A stretch of 64,000 nucleotides of DNA from Dehalococcoidia bacterium (GCA_030619865.1 JAUXAP010000003.1:135-64134), one strand, 5' to 3'; shown: positions 1 to 47,901, numbered from the stretch's first letter. The notes: a model not told the origin generated them from the sequence alone. A program made the numbers and translations.

Positions 1-215
1 CCTGACCTCACCCCAATGGGTTGGGATTGGGTGTCGAAAAGTTGGGGTGCCACCACTCCGATGTCGATAAGAGTAGTGAAAGAATTATCGACTGGCCTGG
101 CTAAACTAAGTCAGCAGAGGTTAGCCAGGTAAGATAAAAAGAGTTGACTAAGCTTGTAGTATATTCTGGACAGCTTCTTCTGGACGGGGAGTTCAACTCT
201 CCCCCGTCTCCACCA
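1..215 (+). ncRNA. ssrA: tmRNA (ssrA), 3' portion; 5' part lies upstream of the window
   Basis: 181-215 reads GGACGGGGAGTTCAACTCTCCCCCGTCTCCACCA: T-arm (GGGAG/TTCAACT/CTCCC), acceptor 3' strand and encoded CCA. No matching tRNA 5' acceptor strand or D/anticodon arms in the preceding ~80 nt, as expected for the tRNA-like domain of tmRNA. No credible ORF in 1-190. Confidence 0.7.
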
Positions 216-1773
216 GAAACACGGACGAGTCTTGAAAAGGCTCGTTGATGATATAAATCTTAGACCCGGTACGGGCCGCCGCCACCCTGAAGATTGGTCT
301 GAAGAGTGGTTTTGGTTTTATGGCAACAATCGATTTCATCTTCTTCGCATCGACATATACCGCATCCAGCATGGAGAGAAGGAATTTTCTTCTCTCTTCC
401 TGATTAGCCTTGGTCCACAACATTGGCAGGTCAAGAATAAGCTTCCCAGCTTCTTCCGCAGCATCGGCTTGAGGTACTATCAGGGATTCAAGTTCCATTT
501 CCAATAGCTTCTTTTTCCGGTAGTACTCCCCGTCAGGGAAAACTCCGTCAATATATGCCTTTGCCATCCGGCGAAGTTTTTCTTGTGCGTTTTGTCGCTT
601 CCTGCTTATCGTCTCAACTTCATCCTTCAGGCTAATAATAGTCATTACCTCTTCTAACCATCGGGGTCCTAACTCAATAGCTTCAATCAAACCGGTAATC
701 TGATTATCAATGATAGAACAGGTAATTGAACCACCACCAGAGCATATGCCATGACTTCTTGAGGCTTTATGCTCTCGGTAGAAAGGTCTGCCGCTCTTAT
801 AAGTCTGCGCCCACATGGGCATTCCGCAGTAGGCACACCTCACTATTCCTTTGAGCAGGTAATACCTTTCCGGGCGAACCTGAAGGGTCTCAGACCGTCC
901 ACTGTTCTTCTTCAGCGTAATCTGCACAGTCTCATAAATATCCGCACTAACCAGTAGTTCATGAAGTCCAGGGAAAAGCTTCCCCCGATGGGTTATTTTT
1001 CCTGCGTAGAAAGTATTATGTAAAATACCTCTCACGGATGCTGTGGTAAACAATCGCGGACCTGATGTTATATTACCCGCTGCATCTAGAAGCTGATGCA
1101 TGTTTCTCGTCCGGAATCCCTGTCCATTAAGCCAACCGGCAAGTTGACTGAGTGTCGTATTCCCTACGGCATATCTCTGGAATAATTCAACTACTGCACT
1201 ACCCTCTTTCGGGTGTACGTGGATCCCACCAGGATGCTCTGGTTCGCACTCTTGTTTCCGGTTACCTTTTTTACCTGTCCAGCAGGATTCATAACCGAAA
1301 GGAATACCGCCAGTATGTTTACCTTCATGGGCCCTCTGTTCCAATCCCTTACTGACGTGATTAGCCAGAGCGCCAGAGAAATATTCAGCAAATGAGCCGA
1401 TCATCTGGGTAAACAGCTTGCCCTGAGGCGTGGTGTAATCTATCTTTTCGGTGATGGATACCAGCGATACATTGTGTTTAGCCAGGATTGATAAGGATTC
1501 CATAGTTACTTTCATGTTCCGTGACCATCTGTCCAGAGTATGAACGATAACCGCATCAAACCTGTCTTTACTGGCATCATCAAGGAGTTTTTTAAAAACA
1601 GGCCGGCGGGATATGGCCTCGACGTGGGCTGACCTGCCTTCTTCCCGGTAAACTCCAATCGGTTCCCAGTCTCTGTTCTTGCAGAGATTCTGAAATAACC
1701 GTTCCTGTGCATCCAAGGAATGCCCTTCCACCTGAGAGAGACTGGATACCCTGATGTAGGCAACGGCTCTCAT
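193..1773 (-). CDS. large serine recombinase (phage-type serine integrase)
   Basis: 526 aa. N-terminal resolvase catalytic domain (MRAVAYIRVSSLSQ), central recombinase domain, Cys-rich zinc-ribbon segment (CAYCGMPMW...C) and long helical C-terminus. Stop codon lies 23 nt inside the ssrA 3' end. Confidence 0.9.
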   Translation of the reverse strand: MRAVAYIRVSSLSQVEGHSLDAQERLFQNLCKNRDWEPIGVYREEGRSAHVEAISRRPVFKKLLDDASKDRFDAVIVHTLDRWSRNMKVTMESLSILAKHNVSLVSITEKIDYTTPQGKLFTQMIGSFAEYFSGALANHVSKGLEQRAHEGKHTGGIPFGYESCWTGKKGNRKQECEPEHPGGIHVHPKEGSAVVELFQRYAVGNTTLSQLAGWLNGQGFRTRNMHQLLDAAGNITSGPRLFTTASVRGILHNTFYAGKITHRGKLFPGLHELLVSADIYETVQITLKKNSGRSETLQVRPERYYLLKGIVRCAYCGMPMWAQTYKSGRPFYREHKASRSHGICSGGGSITCSIIDNQITGLIEAIELGPRWLEEVMTIISLKDEVETISRKRQNAQEKLRRMAKAYIDGVFPDGEYYRKKKLLEMELESLIVPQADAAEEAGKLILDLPMLWTKANQEERRKFLLSMLDAVYVDAKKMKSIVAIKPKPLFRPIFRVAAARTGSKIYIINEPFQDSSVFLVETGES

Positions 1774-1967
1774 TAATCTATTTCCTTTTCCTTCCTTAAA
1801 GCTATCGATAAGGAGATATCGGCTAGAGTTTCCAGGAATGTCTTTATCATCAGTTTATCTACCTCACTTGGTTCCGTCTCCGTTGTGGCGGACACTGTAT
1901 ACGCTTCGTGTATACCCGTCAACACGTTTTCGTCTGTTTTGGGAGAAATATTTTCCAAACCAGTCAT
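1773..1967 (-). CDS. hypothetical small protein
   Basis: 64-aa ORF whose stop overlaps the recombinase ATG by 1 nt (TAATG), suggesting coupling. No recognisable motif. Confidence 0.4.
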   Translation of the reverse strand: MTGLENISPKTDENVLTGIHEAYTVSATTETEPSEVDKLMIKTFLETLADISLSIALRKEKEID

Positions 1968-2035
1968 TTCTTCCTCTCCGAATCATTGATAAGACGAAGG
2001 AGAGTCGCGTATCCAATGTCCAGTTCCTTTGCGGC

Positions 2036-2584
2036 CTAGCTCCTTGATATATTCCCTAGCTGTAATCGCTCCAAAACTACTCCAAAACGCGGTTTGAAGC
2101 CTCGCCTATCCATTACCCTTGGTCGACCGATTTTGTGCCCCATTTTTCTCGCTCTGTCCATACCCGCCTTTACTCTTTCTCTTAAGATTCCTCTCTCCAG
2201 TTGAGCATAGGCAACGGTAATGTAATAAAGAGCTTCTCCGAAGGGAGAAGTGGTATCAAGCCAAGGTTCGGAGTAAGATCTTAGGCCAACTTTCCATGAT
2301 CTTATTCTCTCTAAGGTAGTCGCGGCATCCAGTACCGACCGAAAGGCCCGGTCCATTCTCCATACCAGAATAAGGTCGAACTTCCTGTGACTGGCGTCGT
2401 TGAGTAAATCCTTCCAGGCATACCGATGAGTAATGTCTGTCGCTGAGACGTAGTCGATATATTCCCGGAAGATTATCCCGCTGTCATGGGCATCGACGAA
2501 CTCTCGCATCGGCATGAGCTGAGTCAAAGGATTTTGCTCCTTATCCGATGTCGATACTCGGGCATAGATGCCAAACTTCGTCAA
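2036..2584 (-). CDS. small serine recombinase (resolvase/invertase family)
   Basis: 182 aa. MTKFGIYARVSTSDKEQ catalytic-Ser motif, resolvase core, GRPRV linker followed by a short C-terminal HTH-like tail. Confidence 0.85.
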   Translation of the reverse strand: MTKFGIYARVSTSDKEQNPLTQLMPMREFVDAHDSGIIFREYIDYVSATDITHRYAWKDLLNDASHRKFDLILVWRMDRAFRSVLDAATTLERIRSWKVGLRSYSEPWLDTTSPFGEALYYITVAYAQLERGILRERVKAGMDRARKMGHKIGRPRVMDRRGFKPRFGVVLERLQLGNISRS

Positions 2585-2603
2585 TTAGTACCACCTTTCA
2601 TAT

Positions 2604-3074
2604 TTATAACTTCCTCTTTTCTTCATTGATCAGTTTTATCAATTCCTGTTCACGTTCACGGCTCTTTACTATCTCTGTCCATTCATTCTGTAATTTACTG
2701 ATACGTTCAGGCAGCTGGTGAAACGTCTTTATCGTTGTCTCCAGCTTATCAATGAGTTCTTTACACGTTGCTTCTGTCTGTTCTCTTATCACTTTCAGCT
2801 GGTCGTATTCCAAAACGAATCGGCTCTTACCATGACTGATCAGTTTTTTTATATTCAGATTAGTGAAGATCAGTCCGGTAAGTGACGGTAATACCTCAAT
2901 GCCGTAATCTTTAATAGCTCTATTTGCTATCTGACCGGCAGTTGCCCGGATAATTCCTTCCAAGGCTAATGCGCAGGCAGCCTGTACTAACACCAGTTGT
3001 ATCTTCAATTCTTTAAGACCCCTGTTGGTTGAATTCCCTATAAAAATATTTAAGATGTCATCTGTTTGCTGCAT
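2604..3074 (-). CDS. hypothetical protein, helical/coiled-coil C-terminus
   Basis: 156-aa ORF in the same-strand gene train. No family recognised. Confidence 0.45.
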   Translation of the reverse strand: MQQTDDILNIFIGNSTNRGLKELKIQLVLVQAACALALEGIIRATAGQIANRAIKDYGIEVLPSLTGLIFTNLNIKKLISHGKSRFVLEYDQLKVIREQTEATCKELIDKLETTIKTFHQLPERISKLQNEWTEIVKSREREQELIKLINEEKRKL

Positions 3075-3152
3075 TTAATGTTGGTCCTCTCTTTTTCTGT
3101 ACTAGTACTACAATATATATGTGCGTTGTCGTCGTTGTTGTTGTATTCACAC

Positions 3153-3353
3153 CTACCCACTACCTATACCCGTACCCTGTAATGGCTGTTCCTCCAGTAT
3201 TTTCCTTACATAGGTCTGATCAGTAATGAATCCCCGGAAATGCCTGCCATCTTTTCCGCATACCAGCATGATGAAGAGTTTATTACTCTTCCTTCCCTTT
3301 GCTATCCTTACCGATAAGGTATTTGCACATATGGGACAGTTAATCTCCTTCAT
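3153..3353 (-). CDS. small zinc-ribbon protein
   Basis: 66 aa with CPIC...CGKDGRH. Its start overlaps the upstream ParB-like stop by 4 nt. Confidence 0.5.
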   Translation of the reverse strand: MKEINCPICANTLSVRIAKGRKSNKLFIMLVCGKDGRHFRGFITDQTYVRKILEEQPLQGTGIGSG

Positions 3354-3985
3354 TCTATTTCCTCCCTCTCTAAATAGAATTTACATAGCAGATACATTGC
3401 TGTACTCCTGGTATTAGGACTCTTAGCTTTATCATCTCTAGCTTTGGGTAGTATCCGGCTTAATGCCTCTTCCACCGTTTCGAGTTGTTTGTTAGTGAAC
3501 TGTAATACCATGTGCTTTAGCTTGGCAGCTTGCGACTGTTCCCACGCCTGCAGGTGCTCGGCCAAATCGGATTGATTGAAAGATGCCAGAGATCTCAGGC
3601 TTTCTGTTGTTTCCGGAAGGAGTGAAAGTACTTTATCTTCCGGAATAGATGCGAGGATATTCCTGAAGAGTGCTCCCTTTTGTGCCTGGTCATCTTCTCC
3701 ATGAATCCCGTTTAATGTTTGTGCCAGCAGCATCGATTCGGCATCGTTTAAATTGACTACTACACATGGAACCACACTGAATCCCATGTTCCTTATTGCC
3801 TTTAACCGGTGGTTACCGGAAAGCACCTCATAGAATGCATCATCTTTTGGCCTTACTACCAGAGGTTCCACCAAACCGTATCGGGAAAGGCTCTCGATGA
3901 GACGACTGAGTGTTATATCGTCCATATGGTTTGGATTCCAGGGGGCTTCGTTAAGTCTCTCGATCGGTAGTTCATTTACTTTCAT
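3350..3985 (-). CDS. ParB N-terminal (ParB/Srx-fold) nuclease-like domain protein
   Basis: 211 aa. N-terminal pattern PIERL...NPN...LVEPLVVRP...YEVLSGNHRLKA typical of ParBc domains. 4-nt overlap with the upstream ORF. Confidence 0.75.
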   Translation of the reverse strand: MKVNELPIERLNEAPWNPNHMDDITLSRLIESLSRYGLVEPLVVRPKDDAFYEVLSGNHRLKAIRNMGFSVVPCVVVNLNDAESMLLAQTLNGIHGEDDQAQKGALFRNILASIPEDKVLSLLPETTESLRSLASFNQSDLAEHLQAWEQSQAAKLKHMVLQFTNKQLETVEEALSRILPKARDDKAKSPNTRSTAMYLLCKFYLEREEIE

Positions 3986-4674
3986 TTCTTCTCCTTCTTC
4001 GGATACGGTAATATCTTTGTGGCCAGTCTCTTTCTGTAAGATGGATCGAGAAAATAAATATATCTGTGTTTACGCATTTGGGGCACGATTCTTACTGTTA
4101 ATCCGTAAGACTCAAGGTGTTTCAAGGAATGAGTTCCATAGGAATGGCTGAGACTCCTTGAGTGCCTTACCTTGCCGTCTCCCAAATCAAACATAGGCAT
4201 AGCTCCCGACAGTCCGGTATAAGTCCAACCGGAGGCCTGGTATATCGTACCCACGTGTCCCAGTGTTGGGTCAGCATAGGAGACGACAAATCTAACCATA
4301 GTGTTTTTCTTTAAAGCTCTTAGACAGATGGCAATTACTCTGGATTCGGAATTGGTCGGCAATTTATCAGAAAGCCAGAACCGGGTCAGTGTCAGACAAT
4401 CACTCTGGAATGCCCCCTCAATCAATCTGTACGCGTTATGCGGTCCGACTCCAAAGGTTATGGCACCCAGCAGTTTTCCATTAGTTAAAGCACCAAAAGT
4501 TAGTTTGGTGCCTCCAGGAATAGAATGCAGATAGTGGTGTTTTTCAATTAACTTTTTGGCTGCAATAAAAGGAATGGGTTGAATACGAATAGATTGGAGC
4601 GCCGTGCTGGGACTCGAACCCGCTCCTGCTTCACGGATTGAAGCTGTGCTTACTCTTACACCGACGGCGCTCAT
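3982..4674 (-). CDS. Mom-family GNAT-fold protein (putative DNA adenine modification enzyme); start uncertain
   Basis: Motif string KHHYLHS..GAITFG..LTRFW..NSESR..VSYADPTLGHVGTIYQASGWTYTG matches my recollection of Mom-like acyltransferases. The ORF is open to 4791. ATG 4674 is chosen as the nearest ATG, although family homology starts only near 4585. Confidence 0.6.
   Translation of the reverse strand: MSAVGVRVSTASIREAGAGSSPSTALQSIRIQPIPFIAAKKLIEKHHYLHSIPGGTKLTFGALTNGKLLGAITFGVGPHNAYRLIEGAFQSDCLTLTRFWLSDKLPTNSESRVIAICLRALKKNTMVRFVVSYADPTLGHVGTIYQASGWTYTGLSGAMPMFDLGDGKVRHSRSLSHSYGTHSLKHLESYGLTVRIVPQMRKHRYIYFLDPSYRKRLATKILPYPKKEKK
4596..4672 (-). ncRNA. tRNA-like element (non-canonical cloverleaf, 9-bp acceptor helix)
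   Basis: Minus strand: GAGCGCCGT CG GTGT AAGAGTAA GCAC A GCTTC AATCCGT GAAGC AGGA GCGGG TTCGAGT CCCAGC ACGGCGCTC C. Canonical T-loop and a perfect 9-bp acceptor. The anticodon loop lacks U33, the T stem has a bulged A, and there is no CCA. Confidence 0.35.
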
Positions 4675-4834
4675 TTTCCCACAACCCATTTTTTTGTTAT
4701 ACTCATTTGCGTATAGTATAAAGGCAGGTTTTTTAGTCGTGTGGGCATGTTTTCGCCATAACATAGACAGAATTACGCAAATTTCTGCCATTCTGGCTTC
4801 AATTTTTATGCGTCAATGCGGAGGGTATTGACAG

Positions 4835-5398
4835 GTGAAAAGAAACCAAGCCATAAAGTTCTGGAATGCTCTTGATGCCAGTACTAACATCAATGAGGTC
4901 ATTAGCAGTTTTGAGAATAAACATGGATATGATGGCAAACGGACGTTACAGCGATATACTCAAGCACATAAAGGATTCAGACAAGGCCTCTCCCTTCAAA
5001 ACATATCCTCTAAGACAGGATGGGGTAAATCATTTGTCGATAAACTTGAAGGATGGTGGAAAGGTGAGTTTACTCCACTAGCTAATACTCCAAGAAAAAC
5101 AAACGGTGAAGTTTTTTCAAATTCTCAAGAAAGATATTCGGAGGAATGGAACCATTACCACAAAATCAAAGAATCTATAATCAGGTTACAACATCCTTCA
5201 GGTATCAAGATAAGAGAACTTTTAGATATTATCGAGAGAGAACGCGTGACTTTAGATGATTCTAAACTTCAGAATGACTTGGATGAATTTATAGCAGCTG
5301 TACAAGAAAGTGTAGACCTCTATATGAGTATTCCACCAATCACGCAAGTAATTAATCGAACAAGTAGACGTATGAACAAGCGGTATCCAAGAAAATAG
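4835..5398 (+). CDS. hypothetical protein (possible HTH segment LSLQNISSKTGWGKSFVDKL)
   Basis: 187-aa ORF with a GTG start 9 nt after GGAGGG. Divergent from the minus-strand operon. Confidence 0.5.
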   Translation: MKRNQAIKFWNALDASTNINEVISSFENKHGYDGKRTLQRYTQAHKGFRQGLSLQNISSKTGWGKSFVDKLEGWWKGEFTPLANTPRKTNGEVFSNSQERYSEEWNHYHKIKESIIRLQHPSGIKIRELLDIIERERVTLDDSKLQNDLDEFIAAVQESVDLYMSIPPITQVINRTSRRMNKRYPRK

Positions 5399-5604
5399 TA
5401 CTCATCTTGATTGAATGTCAAATCCATACTTTTCATTCTTAGCTTTCACTTTCTCCAAAAGGGTTATGTCTTGTTGACATTTAATTATGGGTATATAATC
5501 ACCTTAACTAAAAAGACTTCCTTCTGGAAGTTCCAGTATAATCGTTCCCTTTTTAAGAGCTTGTTAACGATTGTACCTGAAGGTATAATTACTGGTAAGA
5601 CAAC

Positions 5605-6045
5605 ATGATTAAACGTTATGAACACACGCAGGTTGGTTATCTAATCATCGTGGCGATGGCAGCCGTGATGGTGTTGATTGGGGTTGTCCTGGCCAATGTT
5701 GGCATCAATTGGATTGCTATCGGTGTCTTGGTTGTCATTGCGGTAGCCTTAGTATTATTTTGCAGCCTGACCGTGGTTATCTGGGAAGATGAACTTGAAG
5801 TGCGATTCGGTCCTGGGTTAATCCGCAAACGGTTTAAGTTGAACGAGATAGAATCGTGCCAAGTTGTTAAGAATCCTTGGTACTATGGATGGGGCATTCG
5901 CTTGACACCTCACGGTATGCTATTCCGCGTATCCGGCTTTCACGCTGTCCAGATCAAACTTAGAACGGGTAAGAAGTTTCGAATTGGTACGGATGTCCCA
6001 CAAGAGCTTGAGGAAGCCATTAGGCAAGCCATAAATTCTCGCTAA
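5605..6045 (+). CDS. membrane protein, two N-terminal TM helices plus small soluble domain
   Basis: 146 aa. Hydrophobic stretch YLIIVAMAAVMVLIGVVLANVGINWIAIGVLVVIAVALVLF. TTGACA promoter-like box near 5480. Confidence 0.55.
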   Translation: MIKRYEHTQVGYLIIVAMAAVMVLIGVVLANVGINWIAIGVLVVIAVALVLFCSLTVVIWEDELEVRFGPGLIRKRFKLNEIESCQVVKNPWYYGWGIRLTPHGMLFRVSGFHAVQIKLRTGKKFRIGTDVPQELEEAIRQAINSR

Positions 6046-6070
6046 AGTAATTACTTTCCACATAAACCGA

Positions 6071-6100
6071 AGGTCACTGGTTCGAAGCCAGTCTCCACTA
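6071..6100 (+). other. tRNA/tmRNA 3'-end-like fragment (candidate distal att remnant)
   Basis: ACTGG TTCGAAG CCAGT CTCCACTA: T-arm plus acceptor-like strand, no 5' half upstream. Shares GTCTCCAC with the ssrA terminus. Confidence 0.35.
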
Positions 6101-6111
6101 CCCTGATTTGA

Positions 6112-6522
6112 CTAAATATTTAGGGTAGTATTAATGAATCTGATGATAAAGACAAACCCTGAAAATACCCACAAGATACTCTGACTTTTAATCAGGGTGT
6201 CACAGGTTCGAGACCTGTACGGCCTACTCTCAATCCCCTCTAACTCTTCTAACGAATGTCTAACCAATGCTTTCTCGTCCTGTTTTTGTGATGCTTTCTC
6301 TAACATCAAATCCATCGTATCCGCCGGGGCCCGTAGATCGCCCTCCCAGTGATTGTAGACGGTGAGGGTCACCATTTCACTGGCATGTCCAAGCACTCGG
6401 CTGATAACTTCTATCGGCTGTCCGGCTTTACGCTGCAGTGTGGCGTAGGTGTGCCGTAAGTCGTGTAGACGGATAGGCTTTAGCCCTGTATTCTGGACAA
6501 CCCTCTTAAAAACCTTGGCCAT
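6112..6522 (-). pseudogene. tyrosine recombinase/integrase, C-terminal catalytic fragment only
   Basis: Begins ...IRLHDLRHTYATL...VLGHAS...TVYNHW (R, HxxR and Y motifs) but lacks the ~200-aa N-terminal part. The frame runs on through the tRNA-Lys fragment. Confidence 0.7.
6180..6226 (+). other. tRNA-Lys(UUU) 3' fragment (anticodon arm to discriminator)
   Basis: TCTGA CTTTTAA TCAGG GTGTC ACAGG TTCGAGA CCTGT ACGGCCT A. No D arm and no 5' acceptor strand upstream. Confidence 0.6.
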
Positions 6523-6526
6523 ATTA

Positions 6527-6558
6527 GTAGGGGTGGGAAATTAATCTCCCACCCCTAC
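6527..6558. repeat. perfect 12-bp inverted repeat hairpin
   Basis: GTAGGGGTGGGA aattaatc TCCCACCCCTAC, directly at the break point of the truncated integrase. Confidence 0.8.
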
Positions 6559-7060
6559 TTTCGTACCCGGCCCTACCGCTAAGCCCGATTACAGCTGAGG
6601 CTTTCCGCACGGGAGGGGGGAGAGGAACATTTAAGCTGGTGGGCTAGAATAAATCCCCCAACGCCCTGGTTTCCCCCGACAGGACCAGCCTACAGTCTAG
6701 TTTTTACATCTATGCTACCTAGAAAAGCCGAAGGGCTCAAAGACACACCCACACTTTGGCTCTGAGCCCTTTTATTTGACTTATCTTCAGAATTGCTTTA
6801 GAATAGAAACAATTAGAAAATATCGTTACTTTTCACTCCCAGGAAAGGCCTGCCCCAACAGGTCTTTCCTTATTTAACCTTCTTTTGTTCCCTTTCAATC
6901 TTCTCGTCTATTGTCTCCTCAAGCCACTCTCCCAACGTCTTTTTTGAACGCAGGGCTTCTACCCGAGCTTTGTGGGGAGTGTCTGAATTTATCTTCATAT
7001 TGCGGAGCTTTCTAATAGGCTTTTCATTCAGCAGACTTACCACAGTTTATATAGGTACTC

Positions 7061-7090
7061 TTCATATAGAGACTATTCATATAGAGACTA
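7061..7090. repeat. tandem direct repeat 2 x 15 bp
   Basis: TTCATATAGAGACTA TTCATATAGAGACTA, followed by the hairpin TACTACA gcaagag TGTAGTA. Confidence 0.85.
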
Positions 7091-7357
7091 CTACAGCAAG
7101 AGTGTAGTACTAAATAATAGTATTGTCAACCTTCTGTGTAAAAATATTATCTAGTTGACTGCTATGCTGATGCTGGGAAATATGGAGAAGGCCAGGGAAT
7201 ACGGTGAGAGAGCCTACTTGAGCTTCTTTTGTAGCTTGCATTCCTTTCAACCTGGTATTATTATGGCATGAAACAGGGGATTTGCAGGCACCTAGCTTAA
7301 TCCAGTTAGAAATGAAAGGGAATCTAGGAATCGCTGGCGGAGCCGAGGCCATAATCT

Positions 7358-7666
7358 ATGGACGAAGGGAAAGAATTTGAGGGTTACCTCAACGCTGAAT
7401 ACCGCCATATAGCAGAGGCACACTTCCGAACTATTGAGGCAATATCGTCTTTCTTTCGGTATTATCTGCTCATCATGTCTCTCCCCATCACACTATTAGC
7501 CCTAGCAATTGGGATATCGTCTCAATCAGATAAGGTTCTAGAAGCTATATTTAGTCTGGGGCCCCTCCTGTCCGCCGTCCTTTTCGTTATTTCAATGGTT
7601 GGCTTCGGTATGCTTCTCTACATTATCAATTTGAGAATGTACTTCGCCCTTCCCCATGCAACTTAG
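7358..7666 (+). CDS. hypothetical membrane protein, possibly truncated
   Basis: 102-aa ORF with two hydrophobic helices. Ends abruptly and is followed by ~440 nt without ORFs. Confidence 0.35.
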   Translation: MDEGKEFEGYLNAEYRHIAEAHFRTIEAISSFFRYYLLIMSLPITLLALAIGISSQSDKVLEAIFSLGPLLSAVLFVISMVGFGMLLYIINLRMYFALPHAT

Positions 7667-8104
7667 AAGCACTAGCTCGGCAAAGCCAACGCTTCTGCAT
7701 AAACGGGTATCAGTAATTTGGAGCTTGACTAAAGACCTTATCCCGGAGTAAAATTAGAACAGTCAGTTGTTTGGGAGGAGTATTATATTTCTATCAAGCC
7801 GAGAAACTAGAGAATCAATAATCAGGGGACATCCCCTGATAATTTATCGGCTTCAAGAGGATTTTAATACGCCAGAAAATACAGCAGACTTCTGGGGTTA
7901 CCGATCCTTTTGCCAAGTTGAACCCACCGCTACTTTAGCTCTACCCAGAATTAAGAGCAGACAATAAAGACACCTACTCCTCAGACATGTTCCAAAAGAT
8001 TGTTACACCAACTGGTTTATTCCAAGTTTTACAGGACATCAAAGAGGGAGCATATTTCGGCGTGATGCCTGAGAATCCCTCTTAGGATACCGTGAGGGGA
8101 GAAA

Positions 8105-9238
8105 ATGGTAACCTTGGTGGTAACAAAAGGTGCCAGCTCAATGGACCTTTATGTTGAAAAGCTGGCTGCGAAACTGGATGTACCAAAGGTTCACACCAAC
8201 ATATATCAGAAGATCGGTGAGCGCTTTAATGCTTCGTGGTTTTCACTGGATGCTCTAAAGGCTATCCGAGATGACTGGCAATTCGTAAGGATGCTCAATA
8301 AACTGAATGGCATCACCCATTTGCCCAATCAGCATTTGGGACGTTATGGCTTATTCCTGAAGGTTCCTTATATCATTACCGTACATGACATCATAAGATA
8401 TTTCGACCTTGAGGGGGAGAACACTTTTGGCTACCACCCTAATCTTAGGGACAGATTCTACCTATCCCTAGACTACAAAGGGGTAAAGAAAGCTACCAGA
8501 GTAATCGCCGTATCCCAGACAACAAAAGATGATTTGGTCCAGCACCTCGGCATACCAGAGGAACGCATTTCCGTAGTCTACGAGGGTATAGACCACTCGC
8601 TGTTCAAACCGACTTCACGCCGACTCGTAGACCACCCTTACCTCCTCTTTGTCGGTACAGAGCACCCACGAAAGAATTTCGCCGGGCTGCTCAACAGCTT
8701 CAGCAAGTTAAAGAGCCAAGGTAGATTCAAAGACCTCAAAGTGCTGAAGGTAGGCAGAGCCGGAAGGCCGGGGACAGACTTTAGACAGCAGACCCTCCAG
8801 GTCGTTGAGGAATTAGGGCTGTCAAGTGAAGTGGTTTTCACCGATTATGTTGCTCGAGAGGATTTGCCAGCTTACTACTCCGGTGCTGAGTGCTTTATCT
8901 TACCTTCTCTCTATGAAGGCTTTGGCTTCCCTCCCCTTGAGGCAATGGCCTGTGGTTGCCCGGTGATAGTCTCTAATGCAGCTTCATTACCTGAGGTTGT
9001 TGGAAATGCCGCCATCAAGGTCGATCCCGATGACATAGACGGCACGGCAAATGCTCTGCTTAAAATTCTTATCGATGAACACTTGAAACAGGAACTAGTG
9101 TCAAAGGGGTTTAAGCAGGTAAGGCGGTTCTCCTGGCAAAGAGTAGCCAATGAGACCCTGAAAGTATATAAGAGTGTAGAGCTCTCTCTTAGCCACAAGC
9201 ATACACCTAGCAGAGTGACGGAAAGGAAAGGCAAGTGA
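8105..9238 (+). CDS. glycosyltransferase, GT4-like (GT-B fold)
   Basis: 377 aa. C-terminal EGFGFPPLEAMACGCPVIVSNAASLPEVVG motif. SD GAGGGGAG upstream. Confidence 0.85.
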   Translation: MVTLVVTKGASSMDLYVEKLAAKLDVPKVHTNIYQKIGERFNASWFSLDALKAIRDDWQFVRMLNKLNGITHLPNQHLGRYGLFLKVPYIITVHDIIRYFDLEGENTFGYHPNLRDRFYLSLDYKGVKKATRVIAVSQTTKDDLVQHLGIPEERISVVYEGIDHSLFKPTSRRLVDHPYLLFVGTEHPRKNFAGLLNSFSKLKSQGRFKDLKVLKVGRAGRPGTDFRQQTLQVVEELGLSSEVVFTDYVAREDLPAYYSGAECFILPSLYEGFGFPPLEAMACGCPVIVSNAASLPEVVGNAAIKVDPDDIDGTANALLKILIDEHLKQELVSKGFKQVRRFSWQRVANETLKVYKSVELSLSHKHTPSRVTERKGK

Positions 9239-10296
9239 TGGGAGGGTCAAAGACATCGCCAAAAGCAGTTATTCTGGTTGGCGGCGAGGGAACACGGCTG
9301 TACCCACTCACTTATGGCATACCCAAACCTATGGTCCCAGTGCTAAATCGGCCCTTCTTGGAACATACCATTGCTTACCTTAGAAAATACGGGGTTGAGA
9401 ATATCATTTTGGCATCAAGCTACCTTCCTGAGGTCATTCAGGATTATTTTGGGGATGGCAGTAAACTGGGGGCAAGACTGACCTATACCGTGGAGAACAA
9501 TCCACTGGGCACCGCCGGAGCAGTAAAGAACGCTGAACAATACTTAGACAGCACCTTTGTTGTCCTCAATGGGGACATCTTCACTGACCTTAATATCGGT
9601 GCTATGCTTGCCTTCCATCAGCGTAAAGGAGCGAAGGCAACCATAGCCTTGATTCAGGTAGATAATCCCAGTGCCTTCGGATTAGTTGAGACCGATAGTG
9701 ATAGAAGGGTGACAGGCTTCGTTGAAAAACCGAGCCCAGACCAAGTGACCACCAATTGGATAAATGCCGGCATCTACATCCTTGAGCCTGAAGTCTTAGG
9801 CTATGTACCAGTAAATAGCCACTATATGTTTGAGAAGGGACTTTTCCCACTCCTTCTCAAACAGGATGAGCCTGTCTACGGCTATCCCTTTAGCAGTTAC
9901 TGGCTTGATATGGGAACGCCAGAGAAATACCTCTGCTTAAACCACGACCTTTTACTGTTGAAAGTAAAGAGCGCCCTGATTAATGATTTGAGTAGGGATA
10001 AGGTATGCTGTGACAAGGAAGCCGCTATTCATTCTTCAGCCGAAATAACGGGACCAGCAGTAATCGGCAGTAAATGCCAGATAGAGCAAGGGGCACATAT
10101 TAAGGGCCCCGTGGTTATAGGTGCAGATTGCCATGTAGGAGAAAGGGCTAACATAGAGGAGACCGTACTGTGGAGAGGCGTCAACATTGGTGCCGGTGCT
10201 AGTCTTAAACACTGCATCATTGGCAGTAATACCAGTATAGAAGACAATGACCAAATCGTTAACCGTGTGGTGACCCCGGACTCCCGACCACGTTAG
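9238..10296 (+). CDS. NDP-sugar pyrophosphorylase (mannose-1-phosphate guanylyltransferase-like) with C-terminal left-handed beta-helix
   Basis: AVILVGGEGTRLYPLT nucleotide-binding motif plus hexapeptide-repeat tail. ATG 9238 overlaps the upstream TGA; GTG 9235 is an alternative start. Confidence 0.85.
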   Translation: MGGSKTSPKAVILVGGEGTRLYPLTYGIPKPMVPVLNRPFLEHTIAYLRKYGVENIILASSYLPEVIQDYFGDGSKLGARLTYTVENNPLGTAGAVKNAEQYLDSTFVVLNGDIFTDLNIGAMLAFHQRKGAKATIALIQVDNPSAFGLVETDSDRRVTGFVEKPSPDQVTTNWINAGIYILEPEVLGYVPVNSHYMFEKGLFPLLLKQDEPVYGYPFSSYWLDMGTPEKYLCLNHDLLLLKVKSALINDLSRDKVCCDKEAAIHSSAEITGPAVIGSKCQIEQGAHIKGPVVIGADCHVGERANIEETVLWRGVNIGAGASLKHCIIGSNTSIEDNDQIVNRVVTPDSRPR

Positions 10297-10417
10297 TGCC
10301 TAGATAACCCTATCTCTGAAAGAGGGGGAATGTCAGCTCTTTGACATGCCACCCACTTTCTAAAGCCTAAGTGCCTAGGAGAAGAAATGAACAATACCAA
10401 AATGAAAGAGGTGTTTT

Positions 10418-11062
10418 ATGAGCAATGAGATTCTCGAGAGCCTAAAGAAAGCAGTAATAGAATACAATAACGAAGCAGCCACAAGGTGGGCTAGAAAGGC
10501 AGTTGAGGAAGGAGTAGACCCTATTAAGGCAGTAGATGCCCTGACCAAGGGTATCAGGCAAGTCGGTGACGGCTTTAGTCAAGGTGAGCTCTGGCTACCT
10601 GAGCTTGTTGGGGCTGCGGATGCCATGAAGAGTGCTATGCCCATTATAGAAGAAGAGATTAAAAGAAGGGGCAAGAAACGAGAAACAGCGGGTGTCATTG
10701 TGTTAGGAACGGTTAAAGGGGACATCCATGACATAGGCAAAAATCTGGTAGCTACGTTTCTGACCATTGATGGCTTCAACGTAATCGACCTTGGTGTTGA
10801 TGTTGCCGCCGAGAAGTTTATCAAGGCAGTCAAAAAGCATAAAGCTGACATTTTAGCTCTATCTGCCCTCATGACCATGACTGGCCAAGAGCAGAGAAAG
10901 ACGATTGATGCCCTTAAGAAGGAAGGTATAAAAGACAAAGTGAAGGTAATGATAGGTGGAGGAGCTATAACCCAAGGGTTTGCTGACGATATTGGAGCCG
11001 ATGCATATGACCCTACTGCCGTTGGGGCAGTAAAATTAGCCAGAAGGCTGACTAGAAAGTAA
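10418..11062 (+). CDS. cobalamin-binding corrinoid protein (methyltransferase cognate)
   Basis: 214 aa. B12-binding DxHxxG motif as GDIHDIGKNLV, followed by SALMT and GGG segments. Confidence 0.85.
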   Translation: MSNEILESLKKAVIEYNNEAATRWARKAVEEGVDPIKAVDALTKGIRQVGDGFSQGELWLPELVGAADAMKSAMPIIEEEIKRRGKKRETAGVIVLGTVKGDIHDIGKNLVATFLTIDGFNVIDLGVDVAAEKFIKAVKKHKADILALSALMTMTGQEQRKTIDALKKEGIKDKVKVMIGGGAITQGFADDIGADAYDPTAVGAVKLARRLTRK

Positions 11063-11076
11063 AAGGAGGCAATGCC

Positions 11077-12513
11077 ATGGGATTAAAAGGCTATGTAGTT
11101 AAACGCCCACTGGATATATTAACCGAGGAGGAAGTTAAGAGGATTCATTATGGGACTCTGGAGGTCATGGCGAAAACAGGAGTGGTGTTTCATCACAAAA
11201 AGGCGCTAGAGATTTTGGGTGATGCCGGTTGCGATGTGGATAGGGAGAAAGAACTGGTAAGGTTCCCCAACTATTTGGTTGAGGAATCGTTAAGAAAATG
11301 CCCCAGAAGAGTCCTTCTGAAAGGAATGACCCCGGAATATGATGTAGCAGTCGGTGACCCTTATGTGCATTTTGCCAGTTGTATTGCTATGGATACCCTG
11401 GATTTAGAGACTATGGACCGGAAGATACCAACGATGCAAGACCACATTAACATGGCCAAGGTTCTAGACTATTTAGATGAAGTTCATTTGCATTATGGAC
11501 AATATGTGCGTGCAGAAGGTGTTGCTGATATGTGTATACACCCACAGAGGTTCAATATAACAGTTAAACACGCATTGAAGCCCTCCATCACGGCCGGAGT
11601 GTTTGGCAACGAGGTATGGTTGATAAAAATGGCACAAGTCGTTGGTCAAAATCCGGCAGGGCACGCCCAGTGCTCGCCTCCACTGACATGGTCTACAGAC
11701 AAAATCGACTGTATGCTTCATTATATAGACGCCGGCTTCCCTATATTGCCGGGTACAGGTCTGGCAACAGGAATGACCAGTCCGGTGACTCTAGCCGGGG
11801 CATTAGTACAACAACAAGCCGAAATTTTATCTGGGATAGTCCTAGCCCAAACCGTCAAACCCGGGATTGGTGTCATCGTTAAAGGCCGCATAGAGCCAGC
11901 AGATATGAGAACCGGTATGATTGCTGAGGGTGGTGTGGAAAAGGTAATTGCCGATGCCGCCTGGAATCAAATCTGGCGCTGGTACCAAGTCCCCCGATGG
12001 CATACAGTTGTATCGACTGACTCAAAAGTCCCCGATTATCAATGTGGAATGGAAAAAGCACTACATTTCCTCTTGTCGGCTTTGACTGGCTCCAACATAA
12101 TTGCCGGCATTGGCGGAGTATATGATGAAATTACTGTTTCCCCCGTTGTTGCCATAATGGATAACGAACTAGCTCGCCGGATTGGCAAAATGATCGACGG
12201 GGTAAATGTAAACGAGGAAACTTTGGCCGTCGATTTGATTAACAAAGTAGGTCCGATCCCAGGTCAATTTCTCAGCACAGAACACACCAGGAAATTGTGG
12301 AAGTCGGAGCTGCTCATACCTGCTCTTGCTGATAGAATGGGCTATTCTGAATGGGTGGGGGGAGGCAAAAAAACTTCCCTTGATTATGCCAAGGAAAAAT
12401 ACGAGGAGATAATAGCTACCTATAATCCTTCCCCTTTGTCCGAAGATAAAGAGAAGGCAATAGACGAGATTATGGAAGAAGCCAGAAAGTTCTATAAGAG
12501 TAAAGAGTCGTAA
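11077..12513 (+). CDS. MttB-superfamily methyltransferase without pyrrolysine codon
   Basis: 478-aa uninterrupted ORF with trimethylamine-methyltransferase-family length and sequence character. Sits directly downstream of the corrinoid protein. Confidence 0.75.
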   Translation: MGLKGYVVKRPLDILTEEEVKRIHYGTLEVMAKTGVVFHHKKALEILGDAGCDVDREKELVRFPNYLVEESLRKCPRRVLLKGMTPEYDVAVGDPYVHFASCIAMDTLDLETMDRKIPTMQDHINMAKVLDYLDEVHLHYGQYVRAEGVADMCIHPQRFNITVKHALKPSITAGVFGNEVWLIKMAQVVGQNPAGHAQCSPPLTWSTDKIDCMLHYIDAGFPILPGTGLATGMTSPVTLAGALVQQQAEILSGIVLAQTVKPGIGVIVKGRIEPADMRTGMIAEGGVEKVIADAAWNQIWRWYQVPRWHTVVSTDSKVPDYQCGMEKALHFLLSALTGSNIIAGIGGVYDEITVSPVVAIMDNELARRIGKMIDGVNVNEETLAVDLINKVGPIPGQFLSTEHTRKLWKSELLIPALADRMGYSEWVGGGKKTSLDYAKEKYEEIIATYNPSPLSEDKEKAIDEIMEEARKFYKSKES

Positions 12514-12557
12514 TTAGCTAACTCTTCTGGAACCACGGACTAATCACTCTCGTAAGA

Positions 12558-12586: not shown

Positions 12587-12783
12587 TTGCTAGGATTAAC
12601 GAATTGGGGAAATATTACGCAAATAGGCAAGCACGGTAAGCAGGTACAAATAAAACTCAATATCTTCCCTATCTTTATATTTTTTGGCGACCAGTTCCAG
12701 CGTTATCCAATCTGACTCAAATTCAGAAGCTTGTGCTAAGAGTGCCGACGGAGCGTGCACACGTTTAAAAAAGAGGAGTAAAG

Positions 12784-13776
12784 ATGGCTAAACCAAAAGT
12801 TGCTTTTTATTGGTGCGCTTCATGTGGCGGCTGTGAGGAGACAGTCGTTGACCTCAATGAAGACTTGCTGAAGGTGGCGGATGCTGTGGATATTGTGCTT
12901 TGGCCGGTGGCGCTAGACTTTAAGAGGAAGGATATCGAAGCTTTAAGCGATAGTGAGATAGCGGTGAGCTTCATAAATGGGGCAGTAAGGCTGGAAGAGC
13001 AGGAGGAGATGGTAAAGCTCTTGAGGGAAAAATCTGGCCTGATAGTCGCTTTTGGTGCCTGTGCTCATATAGGGGGGATACCGGGGCTGGGTAACTTCTG
13101 GACAAGGGATGCAATTTTCCAAAGGGTCTATAAGGAAGCCCCAACTGTTGAAAATCCAGAGGGAATTATCCCCCTTGAAAAAACAGCCACTGATGTTGGT
13201 GACCTTACCCTGCCGGAATTTTATAATACGGTGAAGACATTAGACCAAACCATCCCGGTGGATTACTACCTCCCCGGGTGCCCACCACCGCCTGACCTAA
13301 TATTGAATGCAGTAAATGCCATTCTAACCGGCAAACTACCAGAGAAAGGGGCAGTACTTGCTCCCAATAAAGCCTTGTGTGATACCTGCCCCAGGGCGGA
13401 GACAAAACCAGAAAAAATATCAATACAAGAAATAAAAAGACCGTGGGAAATCAAGATGGACCCGGAGAAATGCTTTCTTGAGCAAGGAATAATCTGTGTC
13501 GGCCCCTCTACTCGTTCGGGGTGCGGGGAAACCTGCATTAAAGCTAATATGCCCTGCCGGGGGTGCTTTGGTCCCGTAGATGGAGTCACAGACCAAGGGG
13601 CAAAAGGGCTTTCGATGATCGCATCTATTTTGGGAATTGACGGCGAAGAGAAGATGTCTGACGAAGATGTTGAAAAATTAATTAATCAGATTGCGGACCC
13701 AGCAGGAACATTCTATAGATTTAGCCTACCTGCTTCTCTCCTTAGAAGAAAGAGAGTGGAGGAAATAGAAGGGTAG
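12784..13776 (+). CDS. [NiFe] hydrogenase small subunit, group 3 (MvhG/VhuG-like)
   Basis: 330 aa. N-terminal FYWCASCGGCEE cluster motif and further Cys clusters (CDTCP, CRGCFGP). No Tat signal. Confidence 0.85.
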   Translation: MAKPKVAFYWCASCGGCEETVVDLNEDLLKVADAVDIVLWPVALDFKRKDIEALSDSEIAVSFINGAVRLEEQEEMVKLLREKSGLIVAFGACAHIGGIPGLGNFWTRDAIFQRVYKEAPTVENPEGIIPLEKTATDVGDLTLPEFYNTVKTLDQTIPVDYYLPGCPPPPDLILNAVNAILTGKLPEKGAVLAPNKALCDTCPRAETKPEKISIQEIKRPWEIKMDPEKCFLEQGIICVGPSTRSGCGETCIKANMPCRGCFGPVDGVTDQGAKGLSMIASILGIDGEEKMSDEDVEKLINQIADPAGTFYRFSLPASLLRRKRVEEIEG

Positions 13777-13777
13777 A

Positions 13778-47696: not shown

Positions 47697-47841
47697 CCCT
47701 CTGTCCGAGAGGATAGCGTATATATCAAAAGGCTATGATAGGTAAGAATCTGTGATTATGGTAGAAAAATACTCTATTCACACACAAAAATAGACTCCTT
47801 ATTTGACACCCTCTATTACTAACAGCTACAATATTTTCTGT

Positions 47842-47901
47842 GCCGAAGTAGCTCAGTTGGTAGAGCAGTAGACTGAAAATCGGCGTGTCCCCAGTTTGAT
47901 T
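47842..47901 (+). pseudogene. truncated, degenerate copy of tRNA-Phe (first ~60 nt) with its own promoter copy
   Basis: GCCGAAGTAGCTCAGTTGGTAGAGCAGTAGACTGAAAATCGGCGTGTCCCCAGTTTGATT aligns to tRNA-Phe 48754-48813 with 6 mismatches and lacks the 3' T-stem and acceptor. The upstream TTGACA-18-TACAAT (47803-47832) parallels 48716-48744. Confidence 0.8.

What the first reader, a model, noticed from the sequence alone, without database searches (positions are those of the whole stretch)
1..6100. Island inserted at the 3' end of ssrA, with the large serine recombinase gene overlapping the tmRNA terminus
**Seen**
- 181-215 is a tmRNA-type tRNA-like 3' end terminating in CCA at 215.
- The stop codon of a 526-aa large serine recombinase (193-1773, minus strand) lies inside it, so gene and RNA share 23 nt.
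- A tightly packed minus-strand gene train follows: a 64-aa ORF coupled by TAATG, a second small serine recombinase, a 156-aa unknown, then the Zn-ribbon, ParB-like and Mom-like genes.
- Two plus-strand unknown genes come next.
- At 6071-6100 a second T-arm plus acceptor-like fragment (ACTGG TTCGAAG CCAGT CTCCAC) lies in the same orientation and shares GTCTCCAC with the ssrA end.
- The region looks more AT-rich by eye; this was not computed.

**Established**
- Integrative elements often target the 3' end of ssrA and leave a displaced partial copy at the far junction.
- ssrA-specific islands associated with a serine recombinase have been described in Dehalococcoides mccartyi.

**Inference**
- 216-6100 is such an island. 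Its cargo is not one I can name as a known element.
Basis: partly seen in the sequence, partly recalled or inferred. Interest (0 to 1): 0.7.

Follow-up and report, generated by a model that had tools for sequence, protein, structure and literature searches.

The report
Known-type serine-recombinase island at the tmRNA gene
A mobile-element insertion sits at the end of the tmRNA gene of an uncultured Dehalococcoidia bacterium, and it belongs to the ssrA-island family already described in Dehalococcoides and Dehalogenimonas; its right end is missing, and the "second copy" proposed as that end is a fragment of an unrelated tRNA.

Summary
The core observation holds. Window 1-215 is the 3' part of a tmRNA gene. 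A 526-aa large serine recombinase (193-1773, minus strand) ends 23 nt inside it, and the region is AT-richer (43.9% against 47.6% GC).

It comprises DsiB, DsiA, a 150-aa protein, ParB and Mom with a tRNA-Gly-like locus in its 5' end. I found the same module next to ssrA in 17 uncultured Dehalococcoidia genomes and in Dehalogenimonas GCA_001466665.1.

Close relatives show junction polymorphism: an empty ssrA site with its own terminator (L028), a DsiB island (L033) and a tyrosine-integrase element (L026).

The proposed attR at 6071-6100 is not supported. It is a tRNA-type 3' fragment whose shared 8-mer is 4 nt out of register with ssrA. A second fragment (tRNA-Lys, 6176-6226) and a tyrosine-integrase pseudogene (6112-6522) lie beside it. 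No ssrA direct repeat exists anywhere in the 64 kb.

The variable segment runs to about 8086. The island has no detectable right junction, is probably immobilised, and abuts debris of a second element. It is a new member of a known kind, of modest interest.

The parts
1..215 (+). 3' part of the tmRNA gene (ssrA), cut by the window edge
   Evidence: Rfam RF00023 at 78.7 bits, E 7e-29, model 151-374. It is 84-92% identical to full tmRNAs in L026, L028 and L033.
196..215 (+). 20-nt ssrA terminus ACTCTCCCCCGTCTCCACCA, the sequence repeated at island junctions in relatives (attL core)
   Evidence: The identical or near-identical 20-mer lies at the dsiB 3' end in 24 of 25 loci, including six junctions with no tmRNA upstream. 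Occupied and empty sites diverge right after position 215.
193..1773 (-). dsiB: large serine recombinase (526 aa), with its stop codon in the tmRNA T-loop
   Evidence: Pfam Resolvase, Recombinase and Zn_ribbon_recom. There are 698 homologues at E<=1e-20; it is 64% identical to Dehalogenimonas P0108. It is 15 aa shorter than P0002 because the T-loop base here is A.
1773..1967 (-). Conserved 64-aa ORF overlapping the dsiB start (TAATG); function unknown
   Evidence: tblastn homologues lie in the same position in 11 loci. A 61-aa gene occupies that position in Dehalogenimonas L030 and a 64-aa gene in L033.
2036..2584 (-). dsiA: small serine recombinase (182 aa), catalytic domain only
   Evidence: Pfam Resolvase 2.6e-28. 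It is present in L001, L002, L010, L012, L025, L030, L033 and L034. It is absent in L004, L005, L006, L007, L009, L011 and L014.
2604..3074 (-). 156-aa protein in the position of the published 'RecF-like' gene
   Evidence: 48% identical homologue in L002. No significant Pfam, NCBIfam or PHROG family.
3153..3353 (-). 66-aa CxxC protein, conserved in the module
   Evidence: Homologues of 46-73% identity in 12 loci. No family match.
3350..3985 (-). ParB N-terminal-domain protein (211 aa)
   Evidence: Pfam ParB_N 9.9e-14. PHROG ParB-like families, and the N-terminal region of a ParB-methyltransferase family.
3982..4674 (-). Mom-like DNA-modification protein; the likely start is the ATG at 4674, although the ORF runs to 4791
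   Evidence: Pfam Mom 3.6e-62 and PHROG 1384 at 2.5e-53. Homologues start at ATGAGCGCCG in most loci.
4595..4672 (-). tRNA-Gly(UCC)-like locus embedded in the first codons of mom
   Evidence: Eleven homologues fold as a cloverleaf, and 10 of 23 pairs show compensatory changes. The D. mccartyi primer REC_003eF matches here with 3 mismatches and matches L001, L011 and L025 exactly.
4835..5398 (+). 187-aa unknown protein, cargo-like
   Evidence: 47% identical homologue in the island of L025. No family match.
5452..5531 (.). 80-nt non-coding element shared with other islands
   Evidence: About 77% identical to sequences in the cargo regions of L002 and L011, the latter with two copies.
5605..6045 (+). 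146-aa membrane protein, cargo-like
   Evidence: ORF. Only a weak EbsA-like match below the Pfam cut-off.
6070..6100 (+). tRNA 3' fragment (T-arm plus acceptor strand); not an ssrA copy
   Evidence: Rfam tRNA model 42-71 at 15.5 bits, E 0.52. It has a perfect 5-bp T-arm, a motif found only 8 times in the window, each time in a tRNA or tmRNA. Junction-matrix scores are negative.
6176..6226 (+). 5'-truncated tRNA-Lys(UUU) fragment, from the anticodon arm to the acceptor end
   Evidence: Rfam tRNA model 23-71 at 23.7 bits, E 0.0042.
6112..6522 (-). C-terminal fragment of a tyrosine recombinase, reading across the tRNA-Lys fragment
   Evidence: Pfam Phage_integrase 8.3e-9, profile 112-167 of 172. 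No N-terminal part was found upstream.
6523..8086 (.). Low-coding-density stretch absent from the empty-site relative; includes a 57-aa ORF (6870-7043, -) and tandem 15-nt repeats (7050-7091)
   Evidence: No match in L028, L031 or any island locus. GC of 6101-8086 is 44.5%. ORFs, repeats.
8105..9238 (+). First gene shared with relatives (glycosyltransferase); marks the end of the variable segment
   Evidence: L028 matches window 8087-8215 and 8957-9027. L032 covers 8753-10995 at 96.5% identity. L031 is syntenic from 9128 onward.

Best explanation
Window 216 to about 6045 is a DsiB-type ssrA genomic island, the family first described in Dehalococcoides mccartyi, carried here by an uncultured Dehalococcoidia bacterium.

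**How it works (inferred from the family and from large serine recombinase biochemistry)**
- A circular island carries an attP site of about 44 bp. Its two 14-nt arms are TGTTTCAGGTAGAG and the reverse complement of CTCCACCAGAAACA.
- Those arms flank a copy of the ssrA 3' end.
- DsiB recombines attP with the tRNA-like end of ssrA.
- The island supplies a replacement for the last 16-20 nt, so the tmRNA stays intact.
- The C-terminal codons of dsiB end up on the strand opposite the tmRNA terminus.
- The remaining conserved genes (64-aa ORF, CxxC protein, ParB-like, Mom-like with its tRNA-like RNA) probably control directionality and protect the transferred DNA.

**State of this copy**
- The integration module is intact.
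- The primase-like sixth gene and the right junction (displaced 20-nt repeat) are missing, so the island is probably locked in place.
- To its right, up to about 8086, lies debris of at least one other element: two tRNA 3' fragments and a tyrosine-integrase pseudogene.
For: **Shown**
- tmRNA and the overlapping recombinase.
- Gene order matches the published module of DsiB 540 aa, DsiA 200 aa, a 150-aa protein, ParB 210 aa and Mom 270 aa with an embedded tRNA-like locus about 4400 bp from attL (PMC3146451).
- The genome scan found 25 Dehalococcoidia loci with DsiB at 57-78% identity. In 17 of them the tmRNA abuts dsiB, with conserved module synteny.
- Dehalogenimonas GCA_001466665.1 has the full module beside smpB and ssrA. 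It is described as an ssrA island in PMC13390414.
- Junctions with no tmRNA upstream in L017, L019, L020, L023 and L024 show the right-end motif plus the 20-nt repeat.
- The two attP arms match at 12 of 14 positions.
- Site polymorphism: L028 is empty and has its own terminator, L033 is occupied with the same tag peptide (overall alignment 91% identical including the divergent downstream flank), and L026 carries a tyrosine integrase.
- Low GC.
- DsiB and host similarity disagree. L011 has DsiB 77% but ssrA 71%, whereas L016 and L025 have ssrA 84% but DsiB 71% and 66%.
- No repeat or junction motif occurs in 4700-9200; the best score there is 0.3 bits.

**Inferred**
- The crossover position, the gene roles and the immobilised state.
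Against: - No attR, attP or excised form was observed for this copy.
- The empty-site relatives are only 84-92% identical in ssrA, so they are other species-level lineages rather than the same population.
- The sixth module gene is absent.
- D. mccartyi DsiB itself was not aligned; the link rests on module synteny, a primer sequence and Dehalogenimonas.
- All recombinase genes are intact, which sits uneasily with long immobilisation.
- Some described islands also lack clear repeats (PMC13390414), so absence of a repeat does not prove immobility.
Confidence: 0.8

Rival explanations
1. It proposes an intact 5.9-kb island (216-6100) bounded by ssrA and a displaced partial ssrA copy at 6071-6100 acting as attR.
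For: - A true T-arm with an acceptor-like tail sits just after the last cargo-like gene, in the same orientation, and shares GTCTCCAC with ssrA.
- Sequence shared with other islands stops before it, at 5531.
Against: - The 8-mer is 4 nt out of register with the T-loop.
- All five T-stem pairs differ yet remain perfectly paired, which neutral decay of an ssrA copy would not produce.
- In relatives the repeat is a near-exact 20-mer preceded by TTTCAGGTAGAGTTCG. The junction matrix gives -12 to -41 bits here.
- The fragment scores as tRNA, not tmRNA.
- It sits beside a second tRNA fragment and a tyrosine-integrase remnant.
Confidence: 0.06
2. The whole segment 216-8086 is a single DsiB island. 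Its cargo includes a captured attP-int fragment of a tRNA-Lys-targeting element, and its attR was lost by a small deletion at the right edge.
For: - The entire segment is absent from the empty-site relative.
- The segment is uniformly low in GC, at 44.1%.
- The tRNA-Lys fragment lacks the 5' part of the tRNA, as an element-borne attP would.
Against: - Nothing in 6100-8086 is shared with any of the roughly 30 island loci.
- ssrA in a close relative is also targeted by a tyrosine-integrase element (L026), so successive insertions are equally likely.
Confidence: 0.25
3. The region is a remnant of a prophage or phage satellite rather than an integrative mobilisable island. Serine integrases, ParB and Mom are all phage-associated.
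For: PHROG matches to integrase, ParB-like and Mom-like families.
Against: - No capsid, tail, terminase or lysis gene is present here or in any of the related loci inspected.
- The conserved unit is the same short module in all genomes, followed by varied cargo such as reductive-dehalogenase-like genes, methylases and helicases.
Confidence: 0.05

Closest known systems
Dehalococcoides mccartyi ssrA-specific genomic islands (ssrA-GIs) with the DsiB/DsiA integration module (McMurdie et al. 2011, PMC3146451)
   Same: - Position immediately downstream of ssrA.
- A roughly 540-aa serine recombinase on the reverse strand whose 3' end overlaps the ssrA terminus.
- A small second serine recombinase.
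- A roughly 150-aa protein, ParB and Mom.
- A tRNA-Gly-like locus in the mom 5' end about 4.4 kb from attL.
- Low GC.
   Different: - The host is an uncultured, non-Dehalococcoides member of the class.
- No primase-like sixth gene.
- No reductive dehalogenase cargo.
- No 20-bp direct repeat at a right end.
- Only about 1.2 kb of cargo.
Dehalogenimonas ssrA-associated dcpA islands (PMC13390414; locus L030 from GCA_001466665.1)
   Same: - DsiB is 64% identical.
- Same gene order, including a 61-aa ORF before dsiB.
- ssrA lies next to smpB.
- The paper notes that one strain has such an island without a detectable repeat boundary.
   Different: - Those islands are about 23 kb.
- They carry a DUF3631 primase-like gene.
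- They carry dehalogenase operons.
SCCmec cassette recombinases CcrA/CcrB of Staphylococcus
   Same: - Serine recombinases that integrate a cassette at the 3' end of a single-copy essential gene.
- CcrB is the best NCBIfam match to DsiB.
   Different: - The score is 119 bits against a family cut-off of 900, so this is not a member.
- DsiA is a 182-aa catalytic-domain-only protein, not a CcrA-like large recombinase.
- DsiA is missing from 7 related islands, so a two-recombinase mechanism is not general.
[quoted passage not shown]
   Same: - Same target gene.
- Same logic of restoring the RNA 3' end.
- A close relative (L026) carries such an element at the same site.
   Different: - A different enzyme class drives the island studied here.
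- The att site has the dyad-arm layout of serine integrases.
Phage large serine integrases (TP901-1, and the integrase of PDB entry 9iu2)
   Same: - Domain architecture of Resolvase, Recombinase and zinc ribbon.
- Short att sites with inverted arms.
   Different: Only distant sequence similarity (E 1e-8 to 1e-16 over the catalytic domain). The target is an RNA gene terminus.

Membership tests
Dehalococcoidia ssrA-GI (DsiB/DsiA integration module) | Inserted immediately downstream of the single tmRNA gene | tested here: met
   tmRNA at 1-215 with the island starting at 216. Empty site in L028.
Dehalococcoidia ssrA-GI (DsiB/DsiA integration module) | A serine recombinase of about 540 aa on the reverse strand whose 3' end overlaps attL/ssrA | tested here: met
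   193-1773 (-), 23-nt overlap. The C-terminus FLVETGES is encoded on the ssrA complement, as in P0002 and P0108.
Dehalococcoidia ssrA-GI (DsiB/DsiA integration module) | Sequence homology of the recombinase to DsiB of cultured Dehalococcoidia | tested here: met
   64% identity over 100% of the length to Dehalogenimonas P0108. D. mccartyi DsiB itself was not retrieved.
Dehalococcoidia ssrA-GI (DsiB/DsiA integration module) | Small second serine recombinase (DsiA, about 200 aa) | tested here: met
   2036-2584, Resolvase domain only.
Dehalococcoidia ssrA-GI (DsiB/DsiA integration module) | 'RecF-like' protein of about 150 aa | tested here: inconclusive
   A 156-aa ORF is in the right place and has a homologue in L002. 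No RecF similarity is detectable.
Dehalococcoidia ssrA-GI (DsiB/DsiA integration module) | ParB-domain protein followed by a Mom homologue | tested here: met
   Pfam ParB_N and Mom.
Dehalococcoidia ssrA-GI (DsiB/DsiA integration module) | tRNA-Gly-like locus embedded in the 5' end of mom, about 4.4 kb from attL | tested here: met
   4595-4672 (-). Cloverleaf with compensatory changes in 10 of 23 pairs across 11 islands. Published primer match.
Dehalococcoidia ssrA-GI (DsiB/DsiA integration module) | Primase-like sixth gene of about 700 aa | tested here: not met
   Present in L002 (CHC2, Toprim, DUF3631) and L030. No remnant in window 4700-8200. Also absent in L006 and L011, so it is not universal.
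Dehalococcoidia ssrA-GI (DsiB/DsiA integration module) | [quoted passage not shown] | tested here: not met
   No 20-mer within 3 mismatches in the 64 kb. The junction matrix finds only ssrA itself plus one hit inside a DUF3160 gene. Best score in 4700-9200 is 0.3 bits.
Large serine recombinases (serine integrases) | Resolvase catalytic domain, Recombinase domain and zinc beta-ribbon | tested here: met
   All three Pfam domains are above their cut-offs. The N-terminal YIRVSS motif is visible in the sequence.
SCC cassette chromosome recombinases CcrA/CcrB | Score above the NCBIfam equivalog cut-off | tested here: not met
   CcrB 119 bits against 900, and CcrA 64.9 against 700.
Active (excisable) integrative element | Paired attL and attR, or a detectable circular form or empty site in the same population | not testable with these tools
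   No reads are available. attR was not found by sequence.

The most novel reading that the evidence does not exclude
The conserved part of the module may be more than an integrase cassette. The tRNA-Gly-like RNA begins at the mom start codon and keeps its cloverleaf through compensatory changes in 11 divergent islands. Together with the Mom-like enzyme, the ParB-like protein and the CxxC protein, it could form an RNA-dependent or RNA-gated DNA-modification system that protects the island during transfer. The RNA would act either as a switch on mom translation or as a partner of the enzyme. A smaller related point is that the host's T-loop base sets the DsiB stop codon. This copy is 15 aa shorter than its relatives, which could affect excision.
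Probability: 0.1. Interest if true: 0.6.

Novelty: new member of a known kind. Interest (0 to 1): 0.3.

Why it matters
- It extends the DsiB-type ssrA island family from the dehalogenating genera into uncultured Dehalococcoidia with a different metabolism (methyltransferase and hydrogenase genes lie nearby).
- The comparison of about 30 loci gives three small refinements of the published picture:
  - The small recombinase DsiA is dispensable in 7 of the related islands.
  - A roughly 60-aa ORF and a CxxC protein belong to the conserved core.
  - The attP site has 14-nt inverted arms centred on ACTC|TCCC. This places the likely crossover 4 nt to the right of the published estimate.
- None of this changes the field.

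Tried and rejected
- **Exact-sequence look-ups.** DsiB, the glycosyltransferase, MttB and P0001 all found nothing.
- **Published right-end motif.** TTCAGRSMGMRKCCA gave 8 hits against 4.8 expected, none near a repeat.
- **14-mer at 51311.** A 14-mer with one mismatch matches only 13 of 20 positions when extended, which is chance level.
- **Matrix hit at 61734-61771.** It scores 23.2 bits against a shuffle maximum of 14.3. It lies inside the conserved C-terminal part of a DUF3160 gene, and relatives place core genes between it and ssrA. I treat it as chance, with some residual doubt.
- **L028-type ssrA terminator.** I searched the window for it as a marker of a displaced junction and found nothing.
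- **Synteny with the genome loci.** There is none between window genes beyond 8 kb and the 25 loci.
- **The two tyrosine integrases.** The window fragment and the L026 integrase are not specifically related.
- **Conserved 80-nt element.** A sigma-70 scan did not call 5452-5531 as a promoter, because its hexamers are only 14 nt apart. I make no promoter claim.

Full report

Mostly yes.
- The Rfam tmRNA model matches window 1-215 on the plus strand at 78.7 bits (E 7e-29). The match covers model positions 151-374, is flagged as cut at its 5' end by the window edge, and ends in CCA at 213-215. ARAGORN does not call it because the 5' half is missing.
- ORF 193-1773 on the minus strand encodes 526 aa with Resolvase, Recombinase and Zn_ribbon_recom domains, so it is a large serine recombinase.
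- On the minus strand the gene ends ...GTG TTT CTG GTG GAG ACG GGG GAG AGT TGA. The last 23 nt are the complement of the tmRNA terminus, and the stop is made by the T-loop.
- The TAATG overlap with the 64-aa ORF, the small serine recombinase, the ParB and Mom homologues and the two plus-strand ORFs are all present.
- GC is 43.9% for 216-6100. Equal-length windows in the rest of the window give 47.6 +/- 0.8%, and none is as low.

**2. What the gene train is.**

They match the "integration module" that McMurdie et al. (2011, PMC3146451) defined for Dehalococcoides ssrA genomic islands. That module consists of:
- a roughly 540-aa serine recombinase, DsiB, on the reverse strand, whose 3' end always overlaps ssrA or its repeat;
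- a roughly 200-aa serine recombinase, DsiA;
- a roughly 150-aa protein;
- a 210-aa ParB protein;
- a 270-aa Mom homologue;
- a tRNA-Gly-like locus inside the first 150 bp of mom, about 4400 bp from attL.

The tRNA-like locus is present at 4595-4672 (minus strand). Homologues from 11 islands fold as a cloverleaf with anticodon UCC, and 10 of 23 pairs keep pairing through changes on both sides. The published primer for this site, TGGAGCGCCGCCGTNGG, matches the window with three mismatches. It matches L001, L011 and L025 exactly. The locus starts at an ATG (4674) that is probably the true mom start.

**3. Relatives.**

- A genome scan with DsiB returned 25 loci, all from uncultured Dehalococcoidia, at 57-78% identity.
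- In 17 of them a complete tmRNA gene abuts or overlaps the dsiB 3' end.
- Module order is conserved: DsiB, the roughly 60-aa ORF, the CxxC protein, ParB, Mom. DsiA is present in some loci and absent from seven. The 156-aa protein was seen only in L002.
- L002 also carries the sixth published gene, a 675-aa CHC2-Toprim-DUF3631 protein.
- The wider protein search found 698 homologues at E<=1e-20. One is a 64%-identical protein from Dehalogenimonas GCA_001466665.1, whose locus shows the full module next to ssrA and smpB. A 2026 paper describes that locus as an ssrA-associated island and notes another strain where no repeat boundary could be found (PMC13390414).
- The best curated family match is CcrB, but at 119 bits against a cut-off of 900.

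**4. Junction polymorphism.**

A metagenome scan with a 26-nt ssrA word found four contigs.
- **L028** (ssrA 88% identical over the matched stretch) has an empty site. CCACCA is followed by a GC hairpin and a T run, then by homologues of window 10274-9127, 8215-8087 and 12768-14811.
- **L026** (92%) carries a 360-aa tyrosine recombinase whose 3' end overlaps ssrA in the same reading frame as DsiB.
- **L033**, found through DsiB homologue P0002 (89% identical), is an occupied site. Its tmRNA has the same tag peptide as L028, and the overall alignment is 91% identical including the divergent flank. The two sequences diverge immediately after CCACCA: GAAACAC... against AACCCAC....

DsiB similarity does not track host similarity, which fits horizontal movement:

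| Locus | DsiB identity | ssrA identity |
|---|---|---|
| L011 | 77% | 71% |
| L016 | 71% | 84% |
| L025 | 66% | 84% |

**5. The proposed attR at 6071-6100.**

Six junctions without an upstream tmRNA show what a right end looks like in this family. These junctions come from L017, L019, L020, L023 (two) and L024, and are probably tandem islands. Each reads (T/C)GTTTCAGGTAGAGTTCG + ACTCTCCCCCGTCTCCACCA + GAAACAC.

- A matrix built from these sites scores the ssrA end at 41.6 bits. Nothing in 4700-9200 scores above 0.3 bits, and alignments over 6061-6068 score -12 to -41 bits.
- No 20-mer within three mismatches of the ssrA end exists in the window on either strand.
- The fragment is a real T-arm. 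The motif NNNNN-TTCRANN-NNNNN' with perfect pairing occurs eight times in the window: the tmRNA, the five tRNAs, and positions 6076 and 6202. Only 0.135 per strand is expected by chance.
- However, its stem is ACTGG/CCAGT, not GGGAG/CTCCC.
- The shared GTCTCCAC begins 3 nt after the loop rather than 7 nt.
- Rfam places the fragment on the tRNA model at positions 42-71 (15.5 bits).
- Seventy-five nucleotides downstream, 6176-6226 is a clearer 5'-truncated tRNA with anticodon UUU (23.7 bits, E 0.0042).
- ORF 6112-6522 (minus strand) reads across that second fragment. It is the C-terminal catalytic part of a tyrosine recombinase.

I conclude that 6070-6522 is the attP-int end of a different, tRNA-targeting element, now truncated.

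**6. Where the insert ends.**

- Sequence shared with other DsiB islands reaches 5531. The evidence is a homologue of the 187-aa protein in L025 and an 80-nt non-coding element in L002 and L011.
- Nothing in 6100-8086 is shared with any island locus.
- Relative to L028, homology resumes at 8087.
- L032 (96.5% identical) shares 8753-10995.
- L031 (89-92% identical) is syntenic from 9128 onward. Upstream of that point it carries other mobile-element-like genes, including HigB and DUF2924.
- The variable segment is therefore 216-8086 at 44.1% GC. The DsiB island demonstrably occupies 216 to about 6045.
- Its right junction has been lost, or never left a recognisable repeat.

**7. Mechanism.**

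What is shown:
- the recombinase class;
- the site;
- the restored tmRNA end, whose last 20 nt are identical to those of the empty site in L028;
- the junction motif.

What is inferred:
- The island's right-end arm TGTTTCAGGTAGAG and the reverse complement of its left-end arm, TGTTTCTGGTGGAG, match at 12 of 14 positions.
- With a 16-nt spacer this gives a 44-bp attP with dyad symmetry, typical of serine integrases.
- Its centre falls at ACTC|TCCC (window 199|200). That is inside the shared 20-mer and 4 nt right of the boundary proposed in 2011.
- The ssrA site has matching inner arms, GGGGAG and CTCCAC, about the same centre.

Two further points follow from the comparison.
- DsiA is missing from seven related islands, so the CcrA/CcrB-like two-enzyme model cannot be general.
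- In this window the T-loop reads TTCAACT rather than TTCGACT. This creates the TGA and shortens DsiB by 15 aa relative to P0002 (...ETGESRTPRPRKATQNILQA).

**8. Verdict.**

The finding is real and correctly classed as an ssrA island driven by a serine recombinase. It is a new member of a family described in 2011 and again in 2026. The attR claim fails. This copy has no detectable right junction, is probably fixed, and sits beside debris of another element. Interest is modest.

Noticed in passing
window 50307-53264: tRNA-Asn (50307-50381) has an 89% copy of its last 35 nt at 53230-53264. The pair brackets a 2.9-kb insert with an MFS transporter and unknown ORFs but no integrase. It looks like an old tRNA-Asn island remnant.
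   Followed up: partly
window 47818-47901 and 48730-48813: An 87% copy of the 24 nt upstream plus the first 60 nt of tRNA-Phe lies 912 bp upstream of the real gene. A 2-phosphosulpholactate phosphatase gene sits between them.
   Followed up: no
window 50996, 51484, 51801-51897, 54436-54528, 60035: A family of 33-93-nt repeats containing the hairpin CCCCACGCCGYGAA...GGGGCT is scattered over 9 kb. Its nature is unknown.
   Followed up: no
window 12013-12112: An Rfam PYLIS_3 hit (45.5 bits) lies inside an uninterrupted 478-aa MttB-family ORF (11077-12513) next to a corrinoid protein gene. There is no in-frame UAG, so this is a non-pyrrolysine MttB homologue.
   Followed up: partly
L026 453-1535 (metagenome contig SDBU01162640.1): In a relative with 92% identical ssrA, a tyrosine recombinase overlaps the tmRNA 3' end. 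It reads the ssrA complement in the same frame as DsiB (...LVETGESRTPRP...NILQA). A 14-nt repeat ACTCTCCCCCGTCT follows directly after CCA.
   Followed up: partly
L028 509-1944 versus window 8087-12550: In the empty-site relative the glycosyltransferase and nucleotidyltransferase block is inverted and partly deleted, and the corrinoid and MttB genes are absent. The DNA next to ssrA has therefore been rearranged as well as invaded.
   Followed up: partly
L034 11472-13121 (ENA contig_53214): A DsiB homologue (78% identical) ends on the 20-nt ssrA repeat. There it faces a convergent 549-aa Resolvase-domain gene instead of ssrA, and its module is cut by an IS3-like transposase after parB.
   Followed up: no
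window 6870-7091: A 57-aa ORF (6870-7043, minus strand) resembles a ribbon-helix-helix regulator by eye only, with no family match. It is preceded by tandem 15-nt repeats TATAGAGACTA(T/C) at 7050-7091.
   Followed up: no
window 61734-61771: A 38-nt stretch scores 23 bits against the island-junction matrix, well above shuffles. It lies in the conserved C-terminal part of a DUF3160 gene. This is probably chance but is not fully explained.
   Followed up: partly
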